This document shows, one piece after another, positions 1 to 45,251 of a stretch of DNA of 45,251 nucleotides. The position numbers and the translations under genes are program-made. The first letter of the stretch is position 1. Each line of letters begins with the position of its first letter. The DNA comes from Escherichia phage vB_EcoS-101114BS4, in sequence record NC_073061.1. One strand, given 5' to 3'. Below the pieces are notes generated by a model, which ran no database searches, was not told the origin of the DNA, and was given only the letters and a program-made list of their open reading frames with translations.

Positions 1-127
1 GCCAGACGGCAGCATGTCCGCTATAGACCCGCGCTCGGTAATACTGAAATGAGCGCGACTATCCGTGATATGCTTATGCATAACCGCTTTGAGATAGGCG
101 GGCGAGTATTCTGCAATTACTTCGTGG
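1..127. repeat. Terminal direct repeat, identical to 45125..45251 (terminal redundancy or circular assembly overlap)
   Basis: Bases 1-127 (gccagacggcagcatgtccgctatag...ttcgtgg) recur exactly at the window end; the last CDS (44544..45176) runs into the repeat. Confidence 0.9.
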
Positions 128-1040: not shown

Positions 1041-1521
1041 TGACAACGGTCTAAGATTTACGGCAGCGTGGGAGTCGTTCAGCCCAGTGCCGTATTTCGC
1101 GACTAAGAAGGAGCAGGCCCGCGGCTTGTACACCTGGGGCTACGGTCATACTGGCACTAATCCGCCACAGAGCATTACCCGCGCGGAAGCGCTGGAGCTA
1201 CTCAAGCGTGATGTGGCGTATGCCGAGAACTGGGTGAACAAGTACGCACACCCGAGCATCAATCAGGCGCAATTCGACGCGCTGGTGGATCTGGTAATCA
1301 ATGCCGGTCAAGGTCCGATCGTACCGGATAACATTGCCAATGACTTCGATGACGCGGTGCGCCTGGGTGATTGGGCCAAAGTCCGTGCTACGCTGCCGCA
1401 GTTCCGCAAGCAAGGCGGTGAAGTGCTCAAGGGCCTGGTACGTCGTGCAATCGGCAGACAGGCGCTATTCGATGGTAAGCAGTGGGACGTTGCCGAGAAA
1501 ATCGGTCGTAACGCGGCATAA
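1030..1521 (+). CDS. Endolysin, lysozyme-like (GH24-type)
   Basis: PVPYFATKKEQARGLYTWGYGHTG resembles the catalytic region of phage lambda/P21-type lysozymes as I recall them; 163 aa; sits in the lysis cluster. Confidence 0.75.
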   Translation: MRFSDNGLRFTAAWESFSPVPYFATKKEQARGLYTWGYGHTGTNPPQSITRAEALELLKRDVAYAENWVNKYAHPSINQAQFDALVDLVINAGQGPIVPDNIANDFDDAVRLGDWAKVRATLPQFRKQGGEVLKGLVRRAIGRQALFDGKQWDVAEKIGRNAA

Positions 1522-1537
1522 TAAGAGGAAACACAGT

Positions 1538-1705
1538 ATGTTAAAAAGTATTCTTGATCATAACGCGGACGCGCTTGCCGCACTGGCTAAAACGGAAGAC
1601 CCAGGCGCGCGCGCCATTATCGCGGACACTATCAGTCATGCGGGTGTCTTTGACGTGAAGCTGCCAAGCCCGCCACCGCCGGAAGAACCAGGCCCAGCGG
1701 CATAA
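1538..1705 (+). CDS. Small hypothetical protein with a proline-rich C-terminus
   Basis: ATG 1538, 55 aa (MLKSILDHNADALAALAKTEDPG...LPSPPPPEEPGPAA); no signal peptide or lipobox, so not called a spanin. Confidence 0.3.
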   Translation: MLKSILDHNADALAALAKTEDPGARAIIADTISHAGVFDVKLPSPPPPEEPGPAA

Positions 1706-1711
1706 ACACGA

Positions 1712-1736
1712 AGCCCGGTTAATTCCGGGCTTTTTA
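1712..1736 (+). terminator. Rho-independent terminator
   Basis: agcccgg-ttaatt-ccgggct hairpin followed by ttttt. Confidence 0.7.
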
Positions 1737-1740
1737 TTGC

Positions 1741-1780
1741 TTGACTTGCAACCAACATAGGGTCCATACTGCAACCAATC
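1741..1780 (+). promoter_or_regulatory. Sigma70-like promoter carrying two direct GCAACCAA motifs
   Basis: TTGACT (1741-1746), 17-18 bp spacer, CATACT; GCAACCAA at 1748 and 1771; 20 bp upstream of the ATG at 1799. Confidence 0.45.
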
Positions 1781-1798
1781 AACGAGAGGAGTAATACT

Positions 1799-2011
1799 AT
1801 GGAACCTGAATTTTTCTGCGCGATTATGTGCCGCACGTCTGCCACGCATTTGATTAACCCGGACTGGCGCTACGATGTTTTCCTGATTGATGGTCGATAT
1901 TACATCATGGACGAGTACGGGAACTGGGCTGAAGTGTACCGCTTCAGCGATACTATGCGTGTTTGGATGACAATTGACGGATTTAGCGCCGCGTTCACTG
2001 ATTCGGAGTAA
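1799..2011 (+). CDS. Hypothetical protein
   Basis: 70-aa ORF with GAGG RBS upstream. Confidence 0.5.
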   Translation: MEPEFFCAIMCRTSATHLINPDWRYDVFLIDGRYYIMDEYGNWAEVYRFSDTMRVWMTIDGFSAAFTDSE

Positions 2012-2159
2012 CACACTATGACACGTAATGATATTTGGGTACTGGCTATCTGGTCCACCGCAGCATTCATCGGTATGGCTATTTGCGAATTGTTATAGCC
2101 CGCCGCCATAGGGACCGTGGTATATTGTCTTCGGTCCCATAATCAGGAAGTAAATTAAT

Positions 2160-3302
2160 ATGCACCCGCAAACTAAAATTACCGACGAGCAATTGATCGC
2201 TGAATTGCAATCTGGCACTACCTCGAAAGATATTGCGAAGAAATACGGCCTTTCCCTTCGTAATGTCTATATGCGCAAAGCCCGCCTGTCGAAGAAAGGT
2301 ATTGGACACGGCAACGATGCTGTAATCCGTAAGCGCGTTGCCGATGGCTTCGGCGTTAAGCGTGTATCCGCCCTGGTGCGTGGCAATGGCGAAGAGGTCA
2401 TGTCCTGGGTCATCACCGAGCAGGACAAGGAGCGCCAACTTGAAGCAATGCGCGCCGTTGTCGAGGGTATGAACAGCGAAATCACACCGGCAGCACCAGT
2501 GAGCGCTCCGCCAGTCCCGATCCAGGCGCTTGACCTGCTTAACCTGTATACCGTGTCGGACTTCCACCTGGGAATGTTGGCATGGGGCGAGGAGACTGGC
2601 GAAGACTGGGATATGGCAATCGCCGAAGACCTTTTCTACCGCTGGTTTGTCGAAGCCTTCGCCCGCGCGCCGGACGCTGGCACTGCCGTAATCAATATCC
2701 TCGGTGATATGGCCCACTTTGACAGCCTCGACGCCGTTACGCCAGCCAGTGGTCACGTACTGGATGCCGATACCCGCTACCAGAAGTTGGTCCGCTACAT
2801 GATTCGCATGGTGCGCAACGTGGTTGAACTGGCGCTGCAAAAACACCATAAGGTCAAACTGCTAATCGTCCAGGGTAATCATGATGAGTCCGGTATGATT
2901 TGGCTGGCTGAAATGTTCAATACCCTGTACGAGAACGAGCCGCGCGTTGATGTGGACACGTCACCGGACGTATACAAAATGGTGCAGCACGGCAAGACAA
3001 CGCTGTTCTTCCACCACGGGCACAAAGCACGCTTTGACGCTATTGAGCCGGTCATGATTTCTAAATTCAGACAGGCTTTCGGGTCCAGTGAGTACAGCTA
3101 CGCGCACGTGGGCCACTTGCACCACCAGAAGATTGTCGAATCCCGTAACATGATTGTTGAACAGCACCGGACCCTTGCCGCGAAAGACGCATATGCAAGC
3201 CGTGGCGGTTGGATGTCCGGTCGCAGTGCAAACGTCATCACCTATAGCGCCAACTACGGCGAAGTAGCGCGCTTAACCATTAGCCCGGAAATGTTGAAAT
3301 GA
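2160..3302 (+). CDS. HTH domain fused to a calcineurin-like metallophosphoesterase
   Basis: N-terminal helix-turn-helix-like segment (TSKDIAKKYGLSLRNVYMRKARL); metallophosphoesterase motifs SDFH (DxH), GDMAH (GDxxH), GNHDE (GNHD), HHGH. Confidence 0.6.
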   Translation: MHPQTKITDEQLIAELQSGTTSKDIAKKYGLSLRNVYMRKARLSKKGIGHGNDAVIRKRVADGFGVKRVSALVRGNGEEVMSWVITEQDKERQLEAMRAVVEGMNSEITPAAPVSAPPVPIQALDLLNLYTVSDFHLGMLAWGEETGEDWDMAIAEDLFYRWFVEAFARAPDAGTAVINILGDMAHFDSLDAVTPASGHVLDADTRYQKLVRYMIRMVRNVVELALQKHHKVKLLIVQGNHDESGMIWLAEMFNTLYENEPRVDVDTSPDVYKMVQHGKTTLFFHHGHKARFDAIEPVMISKFRQAFGSSEYSYAHVGHLHHQKIVESRNMIVEQHRTLAAKDAYASRGGWMSGRSANVITYSANYGEVARLTISPEMLK

Positions 3303-3511
3303 TTAGACAAGTATTCATGAGCACGCAGGCCACCCGCCTGAAAGAGCTACGCAAACAGCTTGAAGGCTTGCGCCGATTCGAACGAACGGCAGCGGCAATA
3401 GGCATGACTATCAGTGAGCGGATCGAGATACTATCGCAAATACGCTACACAGAAGGCGCTATAAGCGAAGTAGAAAGCATGTTGACCAGATACTACGGTC
3501 GCGCCGTTTAA
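3299..3511 (+). CDS. Hypothetical protein
   Basis: 70-aa ORF overlapping the upstream stop (ATGA); start uncertain. Confidence 0.4.
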   Translation: MIRQVFMSTQATRLKELRKQLEGLRRFERTAAAIGMTISERIEILSQIRYTEGAISEVESMLTRYYGRAV

Positions 3512-3518
3512 TCCTCCC

Positions 3519-3544
3519 AGCCCGCCGATTTGGTGGGCTTTTTT
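3519..3544 (+). terminator. Rho-independent terminator
   Basis: agcccgcc-gattt-ggtgggct hairpin (one G-U pair) followed by tttttt. Confidence 0.65.
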
Positions 3545-3628
3545 GTGCCTGTTATAATCCCCCTTAGATGGCTGGGCCGTCTCCTATGTTGCCGATGGTC
3601 GGCGCATATGCATAAAAGGGCTTATATC

Positions 3629-4180
3629 ATGGCAGAAATCAAAGTTAAAGGCCGTCGTGCCAAACTGGACGGACGAGTAGCAGTTACCCCGCGCCGTAAA
3701 CCAGGCGAGCAAACAGAACACACCAATCTTGGACCCGAGATCGAATACGGCAAACGTCGTAAAGGCGGCAAATGTGGACGCCCGACCGACTACCGCACCG
3801 TGTATTGTGACCAGCTTCGTCGCTATTTTGCTGATGCCGTAGCCTGGCAGATCAACTACTCCGACAAGGGCGCTGCGCAAGTAATCCCTCACAACAAGAT
3901 GCCGACTCTCGGTCGCTTTGCCGCGGATATTGGCGTTGGCATCGCTTGCCTGTATCGCTGGGCGCGTGCACATGAGGAGTTTGCCGAAGCGATGGCGGAC
4001 GCTATGGAGTTGCAGAAAACTTTCCTGATGGAAGCTGGCGGCGTGACCATCGCGGCGGGCTTCGCAACGTTCCTGCTTAAAGCCAACCACGGCATTCGTG
4101 ACGATGCTCCGCTGGATGACGACGAAGATGATAACGGCGACGTCGTTGTCGAACCTACCGGCAAAGGCCAGGGTGAGTAA
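3629..4180 (+). CDS. Terminase small subunit
   Basis: 183-aa protein with acidic C-terminus (DDDEDDNGD) immediately upstream of and overlapping the large terminase; central HTH-like segment. Confidence 0.6.
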   Translation: MAEIKVKGRRAKLDGRVAVTPRRKPGEQTEHTNLGPEIEYGKRRKGGKCGRPTDYRTVYCDQLRRYFADAVAWQINYSDKGAAQVIPHNKMPTLGRFAADIGVGIACLYRWARAHEEFAEAMADAMELQKTFLMEAGGVTIAAGFATFLLKANHGIRDDAPLDDDEDDNGDVVVEPTGKGQGE

Positions 4181-5565
4181 TGCGTAACTATGCGGCAGAA
4201 CACCGCGCACTCGAACGCGCGATCGCAAAGCGCAACCGACCGCCACGCCCTACGCGCGTTGCGCAGGCCGTCCGCCTGTATCAGCCTGATTGCCTACCGC
4301 ACCAGGTGGAATTACTGCGCGACACTAAGACTAAAATCCTCGGCCTTTGCTCCGGCTTCGGTGGCGGAAAGTCATGGGTCGCGGCGCGTAAGGTCATCCA
4401 GCTTCTCACACTTAACCCCGGTCATGATGGCATCGTTACAGAACCGACTATTCCACTCCTGGTTAAAATCATGTACCCGGAGCTTGAGAAGGCATTCGAC
4501 GAGGCTGGATTCCGGTGGAAGTTCAACAAGCAAGACAAGATTTATAGCGTGCTGGTGAAAGGCAAATGGACCCGCGTTATTTGTGAGTCAATGGAGAACT
4601 ACACCCGCCTGATCGGGGTTAACGCCGCGTGGATTGTTGCCGATGAGTTCGACACCACTAAGCAAGACGTCGCTATGGCGGCATATCACAAATTGCTTGG
4701 TCGTCTGCGTGCGGGCCTGGTGCGCCAGTTCGTCATCGTATCCACGCCTGAAGGCTTCCGGGCGATGTACCAGATTTTCGAAGTGGAGAAGGATAGCCAG
4801 AAACGTTTGATCAGGGCGAAGACTACCGATAATCACCACTTACCGGCAGACTTTATCGACACGCTGCGGAGCCAGTACCCGGCAAACCTGATTGATGCAT
4901 ACCTGAACGGCCTGTTTGTCAACCTTACGTCTGGCGCGGTCTACAAGATGTTTAACCGCGAAGAGAACGCCAGCACCGAGGAAGTGCAACCGGATGATAC
5001 GCTGATTATCGGTATGGACTTTAACGTAACGAAAATGGCGGCGGTTGTGTACGTCAGACGGCAGCACACTACCGAGAACAAGGAGTTCCGCGACGAGATT
5101 CACGCAGTGGATGAATTCGTGGACCTGTTTGATACCCCGGCTATGATTGAGGCGATCGAGGAGCGCTACCCCGATCATTGTGCTGCCGGTCGGGTCGTCG
5201 TTTACCCGGATAGCAGTGGCAAGTCTCGTAAGACTGTTAACGCATCGTCGTCCGATATCGCGCAACTGGAAGACGCTGGCTTCGAGGTGGAGTATGACAG
5301 CGTCAACCCGCCTGTAAAAGACAGATTGATCGCGATGAATACGATGATGTGCAACTCGAAGGGCGTGCGCCAGTATTTTGTCAACCTGGATAAATGCCCT
5401 ACACTAGCGAAATGTCTGGAACAGCAGGTTTATGACCTGAAGAAAGGCGAGCCGGATAAAACCGCCGGTGTGGACCACATGAACGATGCCGCGGGCTACC
5501 CTGTTGCGCACCTGTTCCCAGTGATTCGACCTATCGCCGTTGTTCCAACTGTAGACTTCTACTAA
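4180..5565 (+). CDS. Terminase large subunit
   Basis: 461 aa; Walker A-like LGLCSGFGGGKSW near the N-terminus, acidic nuclease-type C-terminal half; canonical position before the portal. Confidence 0.85.
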   Translation: MRNYAAEHRALERAIAKRNRPPRPTRVAQAVRLYQPDCLPHQVELLRDTKTKILGLCSGFGGGKSWVAARKVIQLLTLNPGHDGIVTEPTIPLLVKIMYPELEKAFDEAGFRWKFNKQDKIYSVLVKGKWTRVICESMENYTRLIGVNAAWIVADEFDTTKQDVAMAAYHKLLGRLRAGLVRQFVIVSTPEGFRAMYQIFEVEKDSQKRLIRAKTTDNHHLPADFIDTLRSQYPANLIDAYLNGLFVNLTSGAVYKMFNREENASTEEVQPDDTLIIGMDFNVTKMAAVVYVRRQHTTENKEFRDEIHAVDEFVDLFDTPAMIEAIEERYPDHCAAGRVVVYPDSSGKSRKTVNASSSDIAQLEDAGFEVEYDSVNPPVKDRLIAMNTMMCNSKGVRQYFVNLDKCPTLAKCLEQQVYDLKKGEPDKTAGVDHMNDAAGYPVAHLFPVIRPIAVVPTVDFY

Positions 5566-5575
5566 GGAAACGACC

Positions 5576-7096
5576 ATGACCGTTAACGTTGACAACCAGC
5601 ACCCACTCTATGCGCGCATCGCGCAGGAGTGGAAAATGATCCGGGATTGCGTAGCGGGGGAGCGCGCCGTGAAGGCGTGCGGCCCCTTGTACCTGCCACA
5701 TCCCGCCAGTGGCGATAATACCGACCCGAAAGCACGGGCGCGATATAAGGCATATAAGCAACGCGCTGTATTCCTGAACGCCACCGCACGCACGCTTAAT
5801 GCGCTGTTAGGCGTCGCCTTCGCTAAGCCGGTAAGTCTGGACCTTTCCGGGGCGATGGCTGACCTGATTGATGACGTAGACGGCAGCGGAATGCCACTGC
5901 CGCAACTCCTGCGCGGTGCTATGTCGGAAGTGCTGCAATCGGGCCGCGCGGGCTTTATGGTGGACTACGACCGCCAGGCTAACTTTGATGAACTGGGTAA
6001 CGTAGTGCCGCAGACCGCCGCCGAGATGGCGACGCACCGCCCGCTTATCCGCCTGTATACGGCAGAACAGATCATCAACTGGCGGCAGACCCACGGGATT
6101 GACACGCTAATCGTGCTGAAGGAAACGGACGAAATCAGCACCGAAGACCCGGACGACTTTGCAAACCACGAAGTAACGATCTGGACTGAATTGCGCATGA
6201 TTAACGGCGCGGCACACGCCCGCCGCTGGTTTTACAACGCAGACACGTCCGAGGTGCAGATGGACTTGCCGCGTGGCTTCACCCGCACCGAGCTTGTGCC
6301 GCTGGTGGATGCTGCCGGTCGAGCGCTTACTCAACTGCCATTTTGCTGGTGCGGTGCGGTGGACAACAACGCAACGCCTGACGCCGCGCCGCTGGCGGAT
6401 ATTGCATCCATCAACATTAAGCACTACAACGCTGAGGCGGACGTTGCCGAGATCGCGCACATCGTGGGCCAGCCTACCCTTGTCGCCACGGGCTTGACTC
6501 AATCATGGGCCGACAAAAACCTGAAGGGTGGGATTGCTCTCGGCGCGACTAAGGGCGTTATCCTGGGCCAGAACATGGACGCTAAACTGATTCAGGCCGA
6601 GGAGCGCAACTTGTCTGTTGCACTTTGTGAGCGCCGCGAATTGCAGATGGCTAAACTGGGCGCGGCCCTGGTTGAGAAGGGGACTGCACCAAAGACGGCA
6701 ACGGAAGCGGCATACGATGCGCAGACTGACAATAGTATCCTGTCGCTCATTGCCGGTAACGTTGAGAAGGCTTTCAACCGTGCGCTGCAAATCGTCCAGC
6801 TATTCACGGGTGATACCGCGGACCAGCGCGTGACGCTGAACAAGTTCTACACCGAAATCACGGTTGACGCGCAGCTTATGACCGCAATGATGGCTGGTGT
6901 TCAGACCGGTACGGTCCGACTGGCTGACTTCATCAAGTGGATGATGGCGCAGGGCGTTATCGATGACTCGCAAACCGTAGAGCAGGTGGAAGACGAATTG
7001 CGAAATCAGAATCCATTGCCTCAAATGTCCCCTGATGCGGTAGAATCTACCGAAGAAGACCCGGACAAGGTAGCGGACAATGGCGAGAACAATTAA
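5576..7096 (+). CDS. Portal protein
   Basis: 506-aa ORF directly after the large terminase, acidic C-terminal tail; assigned by size and synteny. Confidence 0.7.
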   Translation: MTVNVDNQHPLYARIAQEWKMIRDCVAGERAVKACGPLYLPHPASGDNTDPKARARYKAYKQRAVFLNATARTLNALLGVAFAKPVSLDLSGAMADLIDDVDGSGMPLPQLLRGAMSEVLQSGRAGFMVDYDRQANFDELGNVVPQTAAEMATHRPLIRLYTAEQIINWRQTHGIDTLIVLKETDEISTEDPDDFANHEVTIWTELRMINGAAHARRWFYNADTSEVQMDLPRGFTRTELVPLVDAAGRALTQLPFCWCGAVDNNATPDAAPLADIASINIKHYNAEADVAEIAHIVGQPTLVATGLTQSWADKNLKGGIALGATKGVILGQNMDAKLIQAEERNLSVALCERRELQMAKLGAALVEKGTAPKTATEAAYDAQTDNSILSLIAGNVEKAFNRALQIVQLFTGDTADQRVTLNKFYTEITVDAQLMTAMMAGVQTGTVRLADFIKWMMAQGVIDDSQTVEQVEDELRNQNPLPQMSPDAVESTEEDPDKVADNGENN

Positions 7097-8484: not shown

Positions 8485-8617
8485 ACCGCCTTGCACCTTT
8501 GAGAATGCATCGGCAGATCCAGACGAAGACTTGCTGGTTGATGTTAAAAATATGGAATGCGGGGCTAAGCTAAGGGCGCAAGTGCTGGAGTTGCAGAAAA
8601 TAATTCGGGGGCCGTGA
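8387..8617 (+). CDS. o-spanin (Rz1-like outer membrane lipoprotein)
   Basis: MLRVLTVLIVVLMLSACGSS signal peptide with lipobox LSAC; starts inside the i-spanin gene in another frame. Confidence 0.65.
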   Translation: MLRVLTVLIVVLMLSACGSSKAPSTPLTESVYRPPCTFENASADPDEDLLVDVKNMECGAKLRAQVLELQKIIRGP

Positions 8618-8630
8618 TGGCCCCTTTTTT
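8607..8630. terminator. Terminator, possibly bidirectional, between convergent genes
   Basis: gggggcc-gtgat-ggcccc hairpin followed by tttttt on + and by a T-rich tract on -. Confidence 0.7.
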
Positions 8631-8635
8631 GTTAA

Positions 8636-14864: not shown

Positions 14865-14887
14865 GGGGCCAGCACGGCCCCTTTTTT
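14865..14887 (+). terminator. Rho-independent terminator
   Basis: ggggcc-agcac-ggcccc hairpin followed by tttttt. Confidence 0.7.
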
Positions 14888-14903
14888 ATTGGAGAATATT
14901 ACA

Positions 14904-15583: not shown

Positions 15584-15750
15584 AGCGGGACAAGCGGGAC
15601 GTCCCGATCTGTCCCGTTTTGCCCCGCCCCCTGTAAAACTGCATATCTACTCACTTTCATTGCATAAACTCAAAGCGGGACAAGCGGGACGTCCCGATCT
15701 GTCCCGCCCCCTAAATATGCATACCTATTCAGATTTCGTGCATAAAACAA
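15584..15750. repeat. Two tandem units of about 90 bp, each with GCGGGACAAGCGGGAC, the palindrome CGGGACGTCCCG and TGCATA motifs
   Basis: aagcgggacaagcgggacgtcccgatctgtcccg occurs at 15584 and 15674; palindromes at 15595-15606 and 15685-15696. Confidence 0.85.
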
Positions 15751-15907
15751 ACGGGACAGAAAGCGGGACAAACAAGGGGCGGGACAAAGCGGGACAGCAC
15801 CCCGTCCCCGTCAGTGCTGCCGCGGGTTTCAGCCGATCGGGACAGGCGGGACAACTCCCAGTCTTTCAGACTAGACGGGGGTCAATGGCCCCCCTCGTCT
15901 GAGACTG
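15750..15907. repeat. Copy A of a duplicated iteron-plus-hairpin element (copy B at 43319..43527)
   Basis: Four to six GCGGGACA direct repeats followed by the imperfect long hairpin cagtctttcagactagacgggggtcaatggcccccctcgtctgagactg (15859-15907). Confidence 0.85.
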
Positions 15908-24844: not shown

Positions 24845-24866
24845 GGGGCCATCCGGCCCCTTTTTT
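24845..24866. terminator. Terminator (bidirectional) between convergent J-like and RBP-like genes
   Basis: ggggcc-atcc-ggcccc hairpin followed by tttttt; nearly identical sequence recurs at 27669..27690. Confidence 0.75.
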
Positions 24867-25830
24867 AATACATGTTAGGTATGACGAGTAACGGGGTTGG
24901 GACGGCTATGTTGCGGTTAGGCATCTGGAATTGCTGCCGTGAGTAGTTACCGATTACGCGATTACGCGCCGCACTAACCACGTTGCCCGCCATGCGTATC
25001 CCGTTCATTCGAACGTGGTTGTAGCCGCTGTTGTTCTCAATGAGCGCGCCGGTATATGAAAGCTGTACGAGGCTATTACCGATATTCTGACCGCCGGTGC
25101 CGATATTAATTACCGAATTGAGCACAAACGGCTTGTTAACGGTCGAGAACGTGACCTGCCCCTGGTTGTTCGTCATGGTGATACCAGTCCCCGGTGATGG
25201 AGGCGTATTGTTGAAGATAACCAGATCCAAGTCCACTTCGGCCCCGACGTCATCAATCCCGCCATAAGACGAATTGCGGACGATGATACTACTACCATCG
25301 AAGCCTACCGATACGTTGCCATTATCCCAGCGCGCGAACGGGATACCGCCCACAGGCAAAGGCATACTACCGTTCACGTGCACGCGCTGCGCGTAGCGGC
25401 AGGTCATTAACCGGGACACGTTGGAAATCGCGGTGAAGTCTGTCGAGTTCGCCACCAGTAAGCCCGCATTGCGTGACCCCACCGGCAGCACTTCCATAAT
25501 TATACCAGCCCATTGCGGGAGGCCGCTGTATGCGTTATGCGCGTCCGCGCCTCGAAGGATAATTCCACTATCCCCGTTGCGCTGTACCGACGTCACGTAG
25601 AACGGGTCGGGGAGAACCAGCGTCTGGTCGAACACCTCAAGCACTTCTACCGGGCGCGTGAGTGCAACGACAAGGTCCGACCCTGGTGTTAGCGGGGTAT
25701 TAATGGTCAGCGTCTTGTCGGACTGGCAGCGCTGATCAAACGTAGTGCAGTATGACGGAGCGCGCAAACCGGCAGTTATCTCCATAATCGGTCGTCCGTC
25801 GTTGTAGTCGATGAGTATTCCAGCGCCCAT
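24865..25830 (-). CDS. Putative receptor-binding protein (tail tip RBP)
   Basis: 321-aa Asn/Gly/Ser/Thr-rich protein antisense to and directly downstream of the J-like gene; start at MGAGILIDY with GGAG RBS; function inferred from position and composition only. Confidence 0.4.
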   Translation of the reverse strand: MGAGILIDYNDGRPIMEITAGLRAPSYCTTFDQRCQSDKTLTINTPLTPGSDLVVALTRPVEVLEVFDQTLVLPDPFYVTSVQRNGDSGIILRGADAHNAYSGLPQWAGIIMEVLPVGSRNAGLLVANSTDFTAISNVSRLMTCRYAQRVHVNGSMPLPVGGIPFARWDNGNVSVGFDGSSIIVRNSSYGGIDDVGAEVDLDLVIFNNTPPSPGTGITMTNNQGQVTFSTVNKPFVLNSVINIGTGGQNIGNSLVQLSYTGALIENNSGYNHVRMNGIRMAGNVVSAARNRVIGNYSRQQFQMPNRNIAVPTPLLVIPNMY

Positions 25831-27668: not shown

Positions 27669-27690
27669 GGGGCCATACGGCCCCTTTTTT
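27669..27690. terminator. Terminator (bidirectional) between the fibre gene and the end of the leftward operon
   Basis: ggggcc-atac-ggcccc hairpin followed by tttttt. Confidence 0.75.
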
Positions 27691-28264
27691 AGTTTGAGTT
27701 TTCCCAGTCCATTTTGCGCCGTACTAACGGGCTTTCGTAATATTCCTTGCCCTCCACTTCCACCAGAGGCCAGTCGTTGACAATCACGTATGGTTCCGCA
27801 ATATCCTCAATCACGCCGTGTGCGCTATGTTGCCCGAACGATACGCCCACCAGGATAACACCGGCAACCCGACGGGTGAGATACTCGCGAGCGCAACGCG
27901 CCTCTACCAGTCCGCGACGGATGCCGCTGGTGGCTTTGACCTCGTAGGTCCAGACGGCATCAATCATGTGCTCACGGAAGTCGGGGCCGGACTTAACCTT
28001 GCGTTTACCGACCATGATAATATCGCCGCGGTCGATAGTATTGGCGCTAAACAGGCCGGTACGCATAAGCAAGCCTTGCGGGATACAACTACGCCCGCCT
28101 GCCTGCCCTTCAAGGTACATGCCAGCAAACATCTCGCCCAGCACACCGACAAGTCGGCTTTGCTTGCACGCGTCAGACTTTAATCGCCACTGGTCAAACT
28201 CGACGCTCGCCAACATTGCCGCTATGTGGAATTGTTTACCGGTTATTTCGTATTCGCCGTACAT
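27689..28264 (-). CDS. Hypothetical protein, possible PD-(D/E)xK-type nuclease
   Basis: 191 aa; segment GPDF...IDAVWTYEVK is compatible with a PD-(D/E)xK core but is weak evidence. Confidence 0.45.
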   Translation of the reverse strand: MYGEYEITGKQFHIAAMLASVEFDQWRLKSDACKQSRLVGVLGEMFAGMYLEGQAGGRSCIPQGLLMRTGLFSANTIDRGDIIMVGKRKVKSGPDFREHMIDAVWTYEVKATSGIRRGLVEARCAREYLTRRVAGVILVGVSFGQHSAHGVIEDIAEPYVIVNDWPLVEVEGKEYYESPLVRRKMDWENSN

Positions 28265-28950: not shown

Positions 28951-28972
28951 TGCAACCAACCTATTGGTTGCA
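28951..28972. promoter_or_regulatory. Perfect palindrome TGCAACCAA-CCTA-TTGGTTGCA (candidate operator)
   Basis: 9-bp inverted arms with a 4-bp spacer, overlapping the stop codon of the HAD gene and 50 bp upstream of the next start. Confidence 0.6.
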
Positions 28973-29431
28973 AGTAAATTTTGCTACGTTTATAGAATAA
29001 ATTTTCGGGACCAGATCGCCGCACGCGCGACGGATGGCTTCGATATTCTTCGGGCAGTCTTCAATGATGACCAGTTCGGACACGTCCGCATAGCACACCA
29101 TTTTGAACACCGCGCACGCCTTAAACTCTGGCGGCGGGGTGTCATCCAGCATGTGGCGCATAAACAACCGGCCCACCGGGAAGATCTCCAGTTGCTCGGC
29201 GGTGGTGTCCCAACATTCGCGCTGCCGGTTTGTCAGATACGCGATCTCGAAGCCTTGCTCTTTGTACATGCGCAACAGCGGCAGCATATCCATGTTAAGG
29301 TCTTCGCGTACGTGTGCTTTGTGCCACTTCGCCCAAAAGGTTGATTTGGTTTTTATGCCGGGCACCAGGTCAGCACGCGCATCACTTGAACCATTAATAA
29401 CGCCATCCAGATCACAAATCAGTAGTTTCAT
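28961..29431 (-). CDS. HAD-superfamily phosphatase, 5'(3')-deoxyribonucleotidase-like
   Basis: N-terminal HAD motif I LICDLDGVI; 156 aa. Confidence 0.55.
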   Translation of the reverse strand: MKLLICDLDGVINGSSDARADLVPGIKTKSTFWAKWHKAHVREDLNMDMLPLLRMYKEQGFEIAYLTNRQRECWDTTAEQLEIFPVGRLFMRHMLDDTPPPEFKACAVFKMVCYADVSELVIIEDCPKNIEAIRRACGDLVPKIYSINVAKFTCNQ

Positions 29432-29652
29432 TTTAAGCTCTCAATAAGGGTGTGTCGGGCGCTTCGCGCAGTAAAGGAGTTGCATACGAAGTGGCAACGT
29501 TTGGTTATGACAAGCCAACCGGTAAGGTCCAGGCCCATGATGGATTCGGGTCGGGATACACGCATCACGCGGTCGCGGCGCGGGTCAATGGAGAAGTCCC
29601 GTTGCATTTGGTCCACTACCGCGGGGTCGCGGTCAACGACTAAGATATTCAT
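29428..29652 (-). CDS. Hypothetical protein
   Basis: 74-aa ORF with GAGAGAG RBS, translationally coupled (ATGA overlap) to the downstream gene. Confidence 0.5.
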   Translation of the reverse strand: MNILVVDRDPAVVDQMQRDFSIDPRRDRVMRVSRPESIMGLDLTGWLVITKRCHFVCNSFTARSARHTLIESLK

Positions 29653-40424: not shown

Positions 40425-40454
40425 ATAATAGATTGGTTGCAGGTGGGGTGTCAA
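40425..40454 (-). promoter_or_regulatory. Candidate sigma70 promoter for the leftward operon
   Basis: On the minus strand: TTGACA, 18 bp spacer, TATTAT; the spacer contains TGCAACCAAT; leader of about 190 nt to the ATG at 40228. Confidence 0.5.
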
Positions 40455-43238: not shown

Positions 43239-43318
43239 TTTTTGCGCGCATTGGTTGCCAAATTGAGTGTTTTTAGCTGGTCGCATTGGTTGCCGTGTAG
43301 TGTAAATATAGTGAATAG

Positions 43319-43527
43319 TTATGCAGTTTTATTGCATAAAGTAAGCGGGACAAAAAGCGGGACAGACAGGGGGCGGGACAAAGCGGGACAGCACCCCTGT
43401 CCCGCCCCGGATGGCGCGGCTTGCAGGGGGGCGGGACAGGCGGGACAAACCCCAGTCTTTCAGACTAGACGGGGGTCAGTTGGCCCCCCTCGTCTGAGAC
43501 TGCATAAAATCCGGGATTGCATAATGT
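43319..43527. repeat. Copy B of the duplicated iteron-plus-hairpin element, flanked by inverted TGCATAA motifs
   Basis: Six GCGGGACA repeats (43345-43450), hairpin cagtctttcagactagacgggggtcagttggcccccctcgtctgagactg (43453-43502), ttatgcag at the left and ctgcataa at the right edge. Confidence 0.85.
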
Positions 43528-44543: not shown

Positions 44544-45176
44544 ATGAAATTACTATTCCGCCGTAACTCAGATGGCTATATCCTGAAGCCGATCCAGACC
44601 TTATCGAACTGGGTACGCCTCCACCACGTTGCAAGCGATAAAGTCTGGTGGGCGACTAAGGCAAAGCTGCCGGAGTACTACGAAATCCTCACACACGATA
44701 TCGAGCGCGGCGATGTGCTGCGGGATATTCGCGACGGGCAATTGTGGGTCGTGGAATACACCTACCGGCACGGCCTGCGTATGACGTCCCGCAAGGATGG
44801 CGTAGCGGGCAACATGGTCAAGGGCATGACGTACTTCGGGCTAATCAACTACGAACGAGTGGGCCGCAAGTACAGCCTGCGTGCCCGCCAGCCACATGAG
44901 CGAGCGAACGCCATAGCTGACGTCGTCAACCGCGTAACGCGTGAGGTGGCGCAGAAGATGAGCGTTGAGTTCCGCAAATCCCAGCCAGCGTATGCGACCT
45001 ACGACGCCCGCCAGGTGCAGGCCAGACTTAACAAGGCCACGCATGAGATAATTAATCACGTTGATGCCGTGACGAATGCGCAGCGCATGGCCCGCGAATA
45101 CGGCGTAGGATTCATCCGTGTCGAGCCAGACGGCAGCATGTCCGCTATAGACCCGCGCTCGGTAATACTGAAATGA
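44544..45176 (+). CDS. Hypothetical protein
   Basis: 210 aa from ATG 44544 (MKLLFRRNSDGY...) with AAGGAG RBS; its 3' end lies in the terminal repeat. Confidence 0.55.
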   Translation: MKLLFRRNSDGYILKPIQTLSNWVRLHHVASDKVWWATKAKLPEYYEILTHDIERGDVLRDIRDGQLWVVEYTYRHGLRMTSRKDGVAGNMVKGMTYFGLINYERVGRKYSLRARQPHERANAIADVVNRVTREVAQKMSVEFRKSQPAYATYDARQVQARLNKATHEIINHVDAVTNAQRMAREYGVGFIRVEPDGSMSAIDPRSVILK

Positions 45177-45251
45177 GCGCGACTATCCGTGATATGCTTA
45201 TGCATAACCGCTTTGAGATAGGCGGGCGAGTATTCTGCAATTACTTCGTGG
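45125..45251. repeat. Terminal direct repeat, second copy (identical to 1..127)
   Basis: Exact 127-bp match to the window start. Confidence 0.9.

What the first reader, a model, noticed from the sequence alone, without database searches (positions are those of the whole stretch)
2160..3302. HTH domain fused to a metallophosphoesterase upstream of the terminase genes
The protein combines an N-terminal DNA-binding-like HTH with the full set of calcineurin-like phosphoesterase motifs (DxH, GDxxH, GNHD, HHGH). GNHD is the variant typical of Mre11/SbcD-type nucleases rather than the GNHE of lambda-type protein phosphatases, so it may be a DNA-targeted nuclease or phosphatase. Its position just before the terminase small subunit is where packaging-associated or host-shutoff functions are often found.
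Basis: partly seen in the sequence, partly recalled or inferred. Interest (0 to 1): 0.5.

Follow-up and report, generated by a model that had tools for sequence, protein, structure and literature searches.

The report
HTH-tethered Mre11-like phage phosphoesterase
This coliphage gene encodes a DNA-binding domain fused to an intact Mre11/SbcD-like metal-dependent phosphoesterase, most likely a stand-alone DNA nuclease; the family is common in phages, already catalogued and has never been tested biochemically, and it is not tied to DNA packaging.

Summary
Window 2160..3302 (+) is a 380-aa gene of a Dhillonvirus (HK578-like coliphage). It encodes a LuxR/GerE-type HTH, a conserved beta-hairpin/helix element, a flexible linker and a calcineurin-like metallophosphoesterase (MPE) with all five motifs. 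The catalytic residues are invariant across 70 diverse homologues.

It is a full-length member of PHROG 704 ("DNA repair exonuclease"). The family has thousands of members in virulent phages and in proteobacterial prophages.

Fold and profile comparisons place the catalytic domain nearest PolD-DP1, Mre11, SbcD and T4 gp47, and far from lambda-type protein phosphatases. It fails membership of Mre11/SbcD: no capping domain, no Rad50/SbcC partner, no match to the family models.

The packaging inference is not supported. Terminator-like hairpins bracket the unit, and related genera carry the gene elsewhere, mostly beside junction resolvases, ligase, methyltransferases, nucleotide kinases/phosphatases or lysis genes.

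Best reading: an HTH-tethered, Rad50-independent DNA nuclease acting in phage replication/recombination, and possibly in host-DNA breakdown. The closest characterised analogues are the mycobacteriophage MPEs Bxb1 gp47 and A10ZJ24 Gp48. No nuclease activity has been shown. Interest is moderate.

The parts
2160..3302 (+). CDS of the HTH-metallophosphoesterase fusion protein (380 aa plus stop codon)
   Evidence: ORF list. PHROG 704 full-length match, E=5e-161. 97-99% identical to proteins of other Dhillonviruses. AF2 mean pLDDT 92.4.
2145..2150 (+). Shine-Dalgarno AGGAAG, 9 nt before the ATG
   Evidence: Read directly from the sequence. Invariant in phages rolling and Bas83.
2181..2333 (+). N-terminal LuxR/GerE / sigma-70 region-4 type helix-turn-helix (aa 8-58; helices 9-17, 22-29, 33-45, 53-58)
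2337..2474 (+). Conserved beta-hairpin (aa 64-73, 79-88) plus helix (aa 90-105), consensus GF.VKG.ST...G....QWVK; no recognised family
   Evidence: AF2 secondary structure. G77 and W83 invariant in the N-terminal alignment. No specific structural match.
2475..2519 (+). Pro/Ala-rich flexible linker (aa 106-120)
   Evidence: pLDDT falls to about 64 in this block. Poorly conserved.
2520..3299 (+). Calcineurin-like metallophosphoesterase domain (aa 121-380), with no capping domain
2559..2567 (+). MPE motif I: D134-F-H136
   Evidence: D134 and H136 invariant in 70 homologues.
2703..2723 (+). MPE motif II: G182-D183-M-A-H186-F-D188 (GDxxH variant)
   Evidence: G182 and D183 invariant; H186 in 67/70 and D188 in 66/70.
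2739..2777 (+). Family-specific conserved loop T194-P-A-S-G-H199-V-L201-D202-A-D204-T-R206, between motifs II and III
   Evidence: T194 invariant; L201, D202 and R206 at 90% or more. This stretch is a gap in the alignment to T4 gp47.
2874..2885 (+). MPE motif III: G239-N240-H241-D242
   Evidence: N240 and H241 invariant; D242 in 66/70.
3012..3023 (+). MPE motif IV: H285-H286-G287-H288
   Evidence: H286 invariant; H285 65/70, G287 68/70, H288 64/70.
3111..3125 (+). MPE motif V: G318-H319-L-H321-H322
   Evidence: G318 and H321 invariant; H319 in 66/70.
3159..3212 (+). Conserved C-terminal signature E-Q-H-R-T-L-A-A-K-D-A-Y-A-S-R-G-G-W (aa 334-351)
   Evidence: Family consensus EQHxTLAAxDAYAxRGG. 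It aligns with T4 gp47 'TLTAGDENDPRGFW'.
1710..1733 (+). Terminator-like GC hairpin plus T run, closing the lysis unit upstream
   Evidence: Pattern scan: 9-bp stem, 6 GC pairs. Conserved in phage rolling.
1741..1770 (+). Sigma-70-like promoter candidate TTGACT-18-CATACT, overlapped by two TGCAACCAA copies (1747, 1770)
   Evidence: Pattern scan, 9/12 matches; a weak call on its own, since 3 such sites were found against 3.7 expected. The sequence is conserved in rolling and Bas83. Motif copies.
2019..2099 (+). Conserved 26-aa hydrophobic mini-ORF (MTRNDIWVLAIWSTAAFIGMAICELL) with a GGAG ribosome-binding site, just upstream of the MPE gene
   Evidence: Read from the sequence. Conserved with its RBS in rolling and Bas83. 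Not shown to be expressed.
3299..3511 (+). 70-aa ORF overlapping the MPE stop codon by ATGA (phrog_20931, function unknown)
   Evidence: Found only in Dhillonviruses (73 records). Unrelated to the small ORF in the same position in Jerseyvirus.
3519..3539 (+). Terminator-like hairpin plus T run, between this unit and the small terminase gene (probable start 3629)
   Evidence: Pattern scan: 9-bp stem, 6 GC pairs. A terminator is annotated at the equivalent place in Salmonella phage Shelanagig.

Best explanation
The gene encodes a stand-alone, divalent-metal-dependent DNA phosphodiesterase (a nuclease). Its catalytic domain belongs to the Mre11 / SbcD / T4 gp47 / PolD-DP1 branch of the calcineurin-like superfamily.

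It lacks the capping domain and the Rad50/SbcC ATPase that load Mre11-type enzymes onto DNA. Instead it carries its own DNA-binding module: a LuxR/GerE-type HTH plus a conserved beta-hairpin element, joined to the enzyme by a flexible linker.

It is made from its own small transcription unit. It most likely trims or cuts DNA ends and branched intermediates during phage replication and recombination. As with T4 gp46/47, it may also contribute to host-DNA breakdown that feeds nucleotide salvage.

Shown here: the domain architecture, the intact and invariant metal/phosphate-binding site, the fold neighbours, the absence of an ATPase partner, and the variable genomic context. Inferred: DNA as substrate, nuclease chemistry, and the biological role.
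For: - Catalytic residues of all five MPE motifs are invariant or nearly so in 70 homologues sharing only 32-48% identity with the query, so an enzyme is being maintained.
- Profile comparison with T4 gp47 gives probability 79%, E=1.6e-5 over 186 columns, including a shared post-motif-V signature TLxAxD...RG.W. T4 gp46/47 is annotated as required for recombination and host-DNA degradation.
- A DNA-binding HTH persists at the N-terminus across the family, although its sequence varies.
- Neighbours in unrelated lineages are DNA-metabolism genes: RusA overlapping upstream in two Stutzerimonas prophages and NinG nearby; helicase/VRR-NUC/Dam upstream in Drexlerviridae, with polynucleotide kinase and dNMP kinase downstream in Webervirus; junction resolvase and ligase upstream in a Campylobacter myovirus; methyltransferase and dNMP phosphatase downstream in Ruegeria phage DSS3-P1.
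- Characterised stand-alone phage MPEs behave this way. [quoted passage not shown] A10ZJ24 Gp48 degrades DNA in vitro and the host genome in vivo (PMC12287305).
Against: - No activity has been measured for any member of this family.
- E. coli SbcD itself gives no significant profile match (probability 3%), and Bxb1 gp47 only 4.9%.
- The family carries a conserved loop of its own (T194...D202.D204.R206) that is absent from gp47 and could redirect substrate choice.
- Neighbourhoods are heterogeneous and no single partner is conserved.
- An HTH can serve autoregulation or transcription control rather than substrate targeting.
Confidence: 0.5

Rival explanations
1. Primarily a host-takeover nuclease. 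It is made from an autonomous cassette, degrades the bacterial chromosome, shuts off host genes (including defence genes) and supplies nucleotides, as shown for mycobacteriophage A10ZJ24 Gp48. This overlaps with the best explanation in chemistry but differs in target and purpose.
For: - Gp48, a stand-alone phage MPE, is toxic, degrades host DNA and is needed to overcome host defences (PMC12287305).
- In Jerseyvirus the gene sits in an opposite-strand island with a superinfection-immunity gene and an antirepressor, typical accessory or early functions.
- The cassette is exchanged between genera. Jerseyvirus carries alleles 75% and 48% identical to the window protein at the same locus.
- Nucleotide-salvage genes (dNMP kinase, dNMP phosphatase) are adjacent in Webervirus and DSS3-P1.
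- Terminator-like hairpins and a promoter-like site set the unit apart in the window.
Against: - It is only remotely related to the Gp48/Bxb1 gp47 family (probability 4.9%).
- No expression-timing or toxicity data exist.
- No mechanism for sparing phage DNA was found. Methyltransferases are adjacent only sporadically, and none turned up in a screen of 70 prophage loci apart from one.
- Many carriers are prophages, where an unrestrained host-DNA nuclease must be tightly silenced.
Confidence: 0.2
2. A phosphoesterase acting on something other than duplex DNA: nucleotide second messengers or nucleotide pools, or healing of 2',3'-cyclic or 3'-phosphate nucleic-acid ends.
For: - The family-specific loop between motifs II and III could shape a small-molecule pocket.
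- A polynucleotide kinase gene follows directly in Webervirus.
Against: - A persistent DNA-binding HTH plus beta-hairpin module is hard to explain for a small-molecule enzyme.
- There is no match to any PADLOC defence model.
- The top fold and profile neighbours are nucleases.
- The phage already encodes a separate HAD-type phosphatase annotated as polynucleotide kinase, and a ligase.
Confidence: 0.13
3. Mainly a transcription factor, for example a late-gene activator or an autoregulator, whose HTH is the business end and whose MPE domain is regulatory or secondary.
For: - The HTH is of the sigma-70 region-4 / LuxR type used by activators.
- The gene tends to lie at the boundary between replication/recombination genes and lysis/packaging genes, where late regulators such as lambda Q sit.
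- The promoter-like region of its own unit carries two copies of a phage-wide intergenic 9-mer, TGCAACCAA.
Against: - Strict invariance of the catalytic site argues for catalysis as the selected function.
- HTH-less members exist that keep the enzyme: the 317-aa Campylobacter phage protein, and Vibrio phage proteins that share nothing with the first about 80 residues.
- TGCAACCAA is Dhillonvirus-specific and absent from the three Jerseyvirus loci examined (about 8-9 kb each), including the one carrying the 75%-identical protein.
- HTH sequences vary widely across the family.
Confidence: 0.08
4. A packaging accessory nuclease that helps the terminase cut at pac/cos, as HNH proteins encoded next to terminases do.
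For: - In Dhillonviruses the gene lies about 330 nt upstream of the small terminase gene.
- In at least 12 of 70 prophage loci a large terminase gene lies 1-4 kb downstream.
Against: - A terminator-like hairpin separates it from terS.
- In the Drexlerviridae, Jerseyvirus, Fletchervirus, Ruegeria and Vibrio phage loci inspected no terminase gene lies within the 3.5-4 kb flanks.
- The large terminase has its own nuclease domain (PHROG and Pfam terminase hits).
Confidence: 0.05
5. A lambda-NinI-like Ser/Thr/Tyr protein phosphatase.
For: Same superfamily fold. Lambda also carries an MPE gene (ninI) in its nin region just before Q.
Against: - The PPP signature GDxHG / GDxVDRG / GNHE is absent.
- hhalign probability is 0.9%.
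- NinI belongs to a different PHROG, 246.
Confidence: 0.03

Closest known systems
T4 gp47 (phage Mre11/SbcD-like nuclease subunit; phrog_100)
   Same: MPE fold. Motifs I-V align over 186 columns (hhalign probability 79%, E=1.6e-5), including the TLxAxD..RG.W stretch after motif V. It is a phage-encoded enzyme of DNA metabolism.
   Different: gp47 works with the Rad50-like ATPase gp46 and has a C-terminal extension of about 120 aa that has no counterpart here. The window protein has an N-terminal HTH/beta-hairpin module, a family-specific loop between motifs II and III, and GDxxH instead of gp47's GDIFD. It belongs to a different PHROG (704 rather than 100).
Cellular Mre11 / SbcD nucleases
   Different: No capping domain, no Rad50/SbcC-binding region, and no SbcC/Rad50 gene in the phage. 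No match to NCBIfam SbcD/Mre11 models. E. coli SbcD gives hhalign probability 3%.
Cluster-A mycobacteriophage metallophosphoesterases (Bxb1 gp47, L5 gp54, A10ZJ24 Gp48)
   Same: Stand-alone phage MPEs with no ATPase partner. Their predicted fold has the same top neighbours (Mre11, DP1, then LpxH). They show nuclease activity in vitro and have roles in phage DNA replication and host-genome degradation (PMC11795197, PMC12287305, PMC1470463).
   Different: About 255 aa with no HTH. Only motifs III-V align, without significance (probability 4.9%). Bxb1 gp47 also moonlights as the integrase directionality factor, which has no parallel in a virulent coliphage.
Archaeal PolD small subunit DP1 (3'-5' proofreading exonuclease)
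   Different: DP1 works bound to the DP2 catalytic subunit, and no DP2 is present. The phage has a family-A, T7-like polymerase. Sequence identity is only 13%.
Lambda NinI / PPP-family protein phosphatases
   Same: Same superfamily. Also a phage gene located between the replication/nin genes and the late genes.
   Different: PPP signature motifs are absent, and there is no profile similarity and a distant fold score.

Membership tests
Calcineurin-like metallophosphoesterase superfamily | Five metal/phosphate-binding motifs: DxH, GDxx(D/H), GNH(D/E), H, GxH | tested here: met
   D134xH136, G182D183xxH186, G239N240H241D242, H286 and G318H319xH321 are all present and invariant or nearly so in 70 homologues.
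Calcineurin-like metallophosphoesterase superfamily | Beta-sandwich MPE fold | tested here: met
Calcineurin-like metallophosphoesterase superfamily | Pfam Metallophos / Metallophos_2 at or above the gathering score | tested here: not met
   22.1 bits against a cut-off of 27, and 20.0 against 21.5; just below threshold for this protein. 17 of 70 homologues hit Metallophos at E<=0.01. The models are insensitive to this branch.
PHROG 704 ('DNA repair exonuclease') | Full-length match to the family profile | tested here: met
   E=5e-161, residues 5-380 against profile positions 2-390 of 390. The family name is an automatic annotation, not a tested function.
Mre11 / SbcD nuclease family | Match to the family sequence models (NCBIfam SbcD/Mre11; phrog_100) | tested here: not met
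   No NCBIfam SbcD or Mre11 hit even at E<=1. phrog_100, which holds T4 gp47 and E. coli SbcD, is not among this protein's hits.
Mre11 / SbcD nuclease family | Remote homology of the nuclease domain | tested here: inconclusive
Mre11 / SbcD nuclease family | Capping domain C-terminal to the nuclease domain | tested here: not met
   The protein ends about 58 residues after motif V. The alignment covers only gp47 residues 4-220 of 338, and 192 residues of the 362-residue Mre11 chain.
Mre11 / SbcD nuclease family | Rad50/SbcC-type ATPase partner encoded alongside | tested here: not met
   No such gene is annotated in the nearly identical phage Bas83 (71 features), nor next to the gene in any of the eleven annotated phage loci inspected.
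PPP Ser/Thr protein phosphatases (lambda NinI type) | Signature GDxHG ... GDxVDRG ... GNHE | tested here: not met
LuxR/GerE / sigma-70 region-4 HTH DNA-binding domains | Helical HTH domain with profile similarity | tested here: met
Cluster-A mycobacteriophage MPE (Bxb1 gp47 family) | Sequence-profile relatedness | tested here: not met
   hhalign probability 4.9%; only motifs III-V align. A functional analogue, not a family member.
Terminase-associated accessory nucleases | Conserved adjacency to and co-transcription with terminase genes | tested here: not met
   Terminator-like hairpin at 3519-3539. In the Drexlerviridae, Jerseyvirus, Fletchervirus, Ruegeria and Vibrio phage loci inspected no terminase gene is annotated within the 3.5-4 kb flanks.
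Any nuclease | Metal-dependent cleavage of DNA | not testable with these tools
   Requires purified protein and substrates.

The most novel reading that the evidence does not exclude
The HTH and beta-hairpin module makes this a self-targeting, Rad50-independent Mre11-type endonuclease. On this reading it is a horizontally exchanged cassette that phages use to destroy host or competitor DNA selectively while their own genome is spared, by phage methylation or by absence of the recognised sites. That would make it a phage-borne, restriction-like host-shutoff or counter-defence weapon built on an MPE fold, and a candidate for the unidentified host-DNA degradation function of T1-like phages. That T1 degrades host DNA through an unidentified gene is my recollection of the old T1 genetics literature; a literature search here found nothing on it.
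Probability: 0.12. Interest if true: 0.65.

Novelty: new variant of a known kind. Interest (0 to 1): 0.35.

Why it matters
The family is a core or near-core gene of several of the commonest groups of enterobacterial siphophages: Drexlerviridae including Webervirus, Dhillonvirus, Jerseyvirus and Kagunavirus. Many of these are used in phage therapy and in defence-system research. It was found in 2061 deposited phage records, 4651 representative protein clusters and in proteobacterial prophages.

Databases label it inconsistently. Names seen include "DNA repair exonuclease", "phosphoesterase", "transcriptional regulator", "HTH-type regulator/nuclease SbcD", "sigma-70 region 4 protein" and "DNA polymerase II small subunit". 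No member has been characterised.

If it is an Mre11-type nuclease that replaces the Rad50 clamp with its own DNA-binding domain, that would show a second, simpler way to deploy this catalytic core. It would also assign a function to a gene relevant to phage replication, host takeover and toxicity of therapeutic phages. If it is ordinary end-processing, the value is mainly better annotation.

Tried and rejected
- **Packaging link.** Rejected: terminator-like hairpins bracket the unit, and the position is not conserved across genera.
- **A conserved two-gene module with the overlapping small ORF 3299..3511.** Rejected: that ORF occurs only in Dhillonviruses. The equally placed Jerseyvirus ORF shows no similarity. 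No homologue was found in 70 prophage loci.
- **The small ORF being Ksap1, the KpAvs2 trigger of Dhillonviruses.** Rejected: Ksap1 lies between a methyltransferase gene and a phosphatase gene. Its homologue in the window is 29428..29652 (-), with the L47 and T50 residues that escaper mutations change.
- **Restriction-like pairing with a methyltransferase.** Only anecdotal adjacency was seen (Drexlerviridae, DSS3-P1, one Pantoea prophage). A jackhmmer screen of 70 prophage loci found nothing further nearby.
- **TGCAACCAA as the target of this protein's HTH.** Not supported: the motif is Dhillonvirus-specific and absent from the three Jerseyvirus loci examined, including the one carrying the 75%-identical protein.
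- **Conserved neighbours by all-against-all BLASTP clustering of 76 genomic loci.** Apart from the MPE itself the largest cluster had 11 members, so there is no fixed partner.
- **Database searches without useful hits.** PADLOC gave no hit for the MPE. Rfam gave no family in the window. A single-sequence search of PDB sequences returned only spurious designed-repeat matches.
- **Literature searches that found nothing relevant.** 'phrog_704'; T1 host-DNA degradation / gene 2.5; 'DNA repair exonuclease' + escaper; Dhillonvirus + phosphoesterase. A retron paper and the PUA-Cal-HAD paper were opened and proved irrelevant to this gene.
- **Failed tool call.** The first search for related loci attempt with the 70-sequence alignment failed for lack of a conserved stretch. 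It was repeated with an 11-sequence alignment.
Full report
**What the window is.** The 45,251-base window is a complete Dhillonvirus genome, an HK578-like virulent E. coli siphophage. The region 1500-5600 is 96.6% identical to Escherichia phage SP1 and 90-97% identical to about 150 other records. The first and last 127 bases are identical, which indicates an assembly overlap of a circular or circularly permuted genome.

**Checking the observation.**
- An ATG-started ORF occupies exactly 2160..3302 on the + strand (380 aa). An AGGAAG ribosome-binding site lies 9 nt upstream.
They are D134-x-H136, G182-D183-x-x-H186, G239-N-H-D242, H285-H-G-H288 and G318-H-x-H321.
- The protein matches PHROG 704 ("DNA repair exonuclease") over its whole length at E=5e-161. 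Pfam's generic Metallophos models score just under their cut-offs.
- An exhaustive search found 4651 representative clusters at E<=1e-3, and tblastn found the gene in 2061 phage records.
- I aligned 70 homologues that are 32-48% identical to the query. The metal- and phosphate-binding residues are invariant (D134, H136, G182, D183, N240, H241, H286, G318, H321) or conserved at 90% or more (H186, D188, D242, H285, H288, H319).
- AlphaFold2 on that alignment gives mean pLDDT 92.4.

**The N-terminal part.**
- For this protein alone the HTH signal is weak (GerE E=0.011).
- Homologues hit Sigma70_r4_2 (1.5e-9), GerE (2.4e-8), HTH_1, HTH_8 and others.
- A profile of residues 1-118 hits the DNA-binding domains of RhlR (5e-4), NarL, GerE, DesR, ComA and FixJ in the PDB.
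- After the HTH (aa 8-58) comes a conserved beta-hairpin plus helix (aa 60-105; G77 and W83 invariant). It has no recognisable relatives.
- A low-confidence Pro/Ala linker (aa 106-120) follows, and then the enzyme domain (aa 121-380).

**Which kind of phosphoesterase.**
- In profile-to-sequence comparison, T4 gp47 aligns over 186 columns covering all motifs (probability 79%, E=1.6e-5). The alignment includes a shared stretch after motif V: family consensus TLAAxDAYAxRGG against gp47 TLTAGDENDPRGFW.
- E. coli SbcD (probability 3%), lambda NinI phosphatase (0.9%) and Bxb1 gp47 (4.9%) give nothing significant.
- Lambda NinI shows the PPP signature GDLHG / GDLVDRG / GNHE, which this protein lacks.

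GNHD by itself does not establish that, and the structural margin over non-nuclease MPEs is modest.

**Membership of Mre11/SbcD fails on defining features.**
- There is no hit to NCBIfam SbcD or Mre11 models, nor to phrog_100, which contains T4 gp47 and E. coli SbcD.
- There is no capping domain. The chain ends about 58 residues after motif V, and the C-terminal 120 residues of gp47 have no counterpart.
- No Rad50/SbcC-like gene is annotated in the nearly identical phage Bas83. Its replication set is T7-like: family-A polymerase, gp2.5-like SSB, exonuclease, helicase-primase, ligase and methyltransferases.
- The family also has its own conserved loop between motifs II and III (T194-P-x-S-G-H-x-L-D-x-D-x-R206), which is a gap in the gp47 alignment.

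**Genomic context in the window.**
- Terminator-like hairpins at 1710-1733 (after the lysis genes) and 3519-3539 (before the small terminase gene, probable start 3629) bracket the gene.
- Downstream of the first hairpin lies a sigma-70-like TTGACT-18-CATACT site. The scan found 3 such sites in the region against 3.7 expected, so the call is weak by itself. Its sequence is conserved in other Dhillonviruses.
- A conserved 26-aa hydrophobic mini-ORF (2019..2099) follows, and then the MPE gene.
- A 70-aa ORF (3299..3511) overlaps the MPE stop codon by ATGA.
- The window additionally carries a 216-nt insertion with a 70-aa ORF (1799..2011) that phages rolling and Bas83 lack.

**Context elsewhere is not conserved.**
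- *Jerseyvirus.* In Shelanagig the 75%-identical gene sits on the opposite strand in an island between the tail-tube and tail-chaperone genes, with a superinfection-immunity gene and an antirepressor. Jerseyviruses SP-101 and LDT325 hold a 48-49% identical allele at the same locus. That points to cassette exchange between genera.
- *Drexlerviridae.* In tuinn and Webervirus KpKT21phi1, and in Yersinia phage YP10S2 with the same layout, the gene follows helicase, VRR-NUC and a DNA methyltransferase and precedes the lysis genes. In Webervirus it precedes polynucleotide kinase and dNMP kinase.
- *Other phages.* In Ruegeria phage DSS3-P1 a methyltransferase and a dNMP phosphatase follow it. In a Campylobacter myovirus an HTH-less version follows a junction resolvase and a ligase. 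In a Vibrio phage it lies among lysis genes, an HNH endonuclease and head genes.
- *Bacterial genomes.* A scan found 76 loci, mostly in proteobacterial chromosomes and evidently prophages. There RusA overlaps it upstream in two loci and NinG lies nearby. Endolysins lie mostly within 4 kb upstream. Large terminases lie 1-4 kb downstream in at least 12 of 70 loci. Integrases, a methylase, a primase and a transposase also occur.

The recurrent theme is the boundary between the replication/recombination genes and the late genes, with DNA-metabolism neighbours. It is not the terminase. The small downstream ORF is not a conserved partner.

**Literature.**
- I found no paper on this family.
- The nearest characterised analogues are the cluster-A mycobacteriophage MPEs. 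[quoted passage not shown] Its predicted fold has Mre11 and DP1 as top neighbours, and it shows weak Mn/Mg-dependent exonuclease activity (PMC1470463, PMC11795197).
- A10ZJ24 Gp48 is expressed early and is toxic. It degrades linear, plasmid and genomic DNA in vitro and the host genome in vivo, and it is needed to overcome host defences (PMC12287305).
- T4 gp46/47 is annotated as required for both recombination and host-DNA degradation.

**Interpretation.**
- An invariant catalytic site together with a variable but persistent DNA-binding module argues for an enzyme that works on DNA. Nuclease-like fold neighbours, remote homology to T4 gp47 and DNA-metabolism neighbours point the same way.
- I therefore commit to a Rad50-independent, HTH-tethered Mre11-like nuclease acting in phage replication/recombination, possibly also in host-DNA breakdown. 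Confidence is about 0.5 for the chemistry and target and lower for the exact role.
- Architecture, conservation, fold neighbours and context are shown. Substrate, activity and role are inferred.
- Rivals are a dedicated host-takeover nuclease, a non-DNA phosphoesterase, a transcription factor, a packaging accessory and a protein phosphatase. Their evidence and refutation tests are listed separately.

**Novelty and score.**
- The gene is 97-99% identical to deposited and annotated phage genes, and the family is catalogued. The window therefore adds no new family.
- As a kind it is a variant of known MPE nucleases: its own DNA-binding domain replaces the capping domain and ATPase clamp, and it has a family-specific active-site loop.
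- It is widespread in important phage groups and entirely uncharacterised. Interest is moderate (0.35).

Noticed in passing
window 15585-15853 and 43345-43447 (repeat 15718-15894 / 43312-43488): Two non-coding clusters of the octamer GCGGGACA hold 14 of its 16 exact copies in the window, against 1.9 expected. They share a 177-nt repeat (81% identical) that ends in a hairpin-rich conserved tail. One cluster lies just before the tape-measure gene and the other just after the helicase-primase gene. The clusters are conserved in other Dhillonviruses and were not seen in the non-Dhillonvirus loci examined. They look like iterons: an origin or a regulator-binding array.
   Followed up: partly
window 1747, 1770, 9993, 10007, 26109, 28951/28964, 30623, 40433, 43658, 44242: The 9-mer TGCAACCAA occurs 11 times exactly, against about 0.35 expected from length. 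At least nine copies lie in intergenic or promoter-like sequence; 43658 and 44242 were not checked against a gene map. Copies are often paired: a perfect palindrome TGCAACCAA-N4-TTGGTTGCA at 28951, one copy inside the spacer of a strong TTGACA-18-TATTAT promoter at 40433, and two copies in the promoter-like region of the HTH-MPE unit. The motif is specific to Dhillonvirus loci. It is probably an operator or promoter element of an unidentified phage regulator.
   Followed up: partly
window 29428..29652 (-): A 74-aa ORF between a DNA methyltransferase gene and a HAD-type phosphatase gene (annotated as polynucleotide kinase) is the homologue of Ksap1, the Dhillonvirus protein that triggers the Klebsiella Avs2 defence. 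It keeps L47 and T50, the residues changed in escaper phages, so this phage may well be sensed by KpAvs2, although a natural Ksap1 variant differing at 14 residues escapes (PMC11564622).
   Followed up: partly
window 1790-2005 (ORF 1799..2011): A 216-nt insertion carries a 70-aa ORF with no family match in Pfam or PADLOC. It is flanked by a duplicated GGAGTAA..ACTATG ribosome-binding-site/start sequence and is absent from phages rolling and Bas83. It looks like a moron-like gene cassette slotted in ahead of the HTH-MPE gene.
   Followed up: partly
window 2019..2099 (+): A conserved 26-aa hydrophobic mini-ORF (MTRNDIWVLAIWSTAAFIGMAICELL) with its own GGAG ribosome-binding site lies immediately upstream of the MPE gene in all three Dhillonviruses compared. 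No CDS at this position appears in the annotation tables of rolling or Bas83.
   Followed up: no
window 1-127 and 45125-45251: An exact 127-nt direct repeat at the two ends of the window. It is most simply an assembler overlap of a circular or circularly permuted genome, giving a unique length of about 45,124 bp.
   Followed up: no
window 8608-8633, 14865-14890, 27669-27694, 24845-24867: A family of near-identical GC hairpins, GGGGCC-N4/5-GGCCCC followed by a T run, recurs at the ends of several late-gene blocks. Together with the hairpins at 479-508, 1710-1733 and 3519-3539, this suggests that the late region is cut into many terminator-bounded units.
   Followed up: no
L002 / L088 / L091 (Jerseyvirus loci): Within one genus and at one locus, the island between the tail-tube and tail-chaperone genes, the HTH-MPE gene exists as two alleles. 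One is 75% and the other 48-49% identical to the Dhillonvirus protein, and an HNH endonuclease is inserted after it in one phage. This is evidence of horizontal replacement of the cassette.
   Followed up: partly
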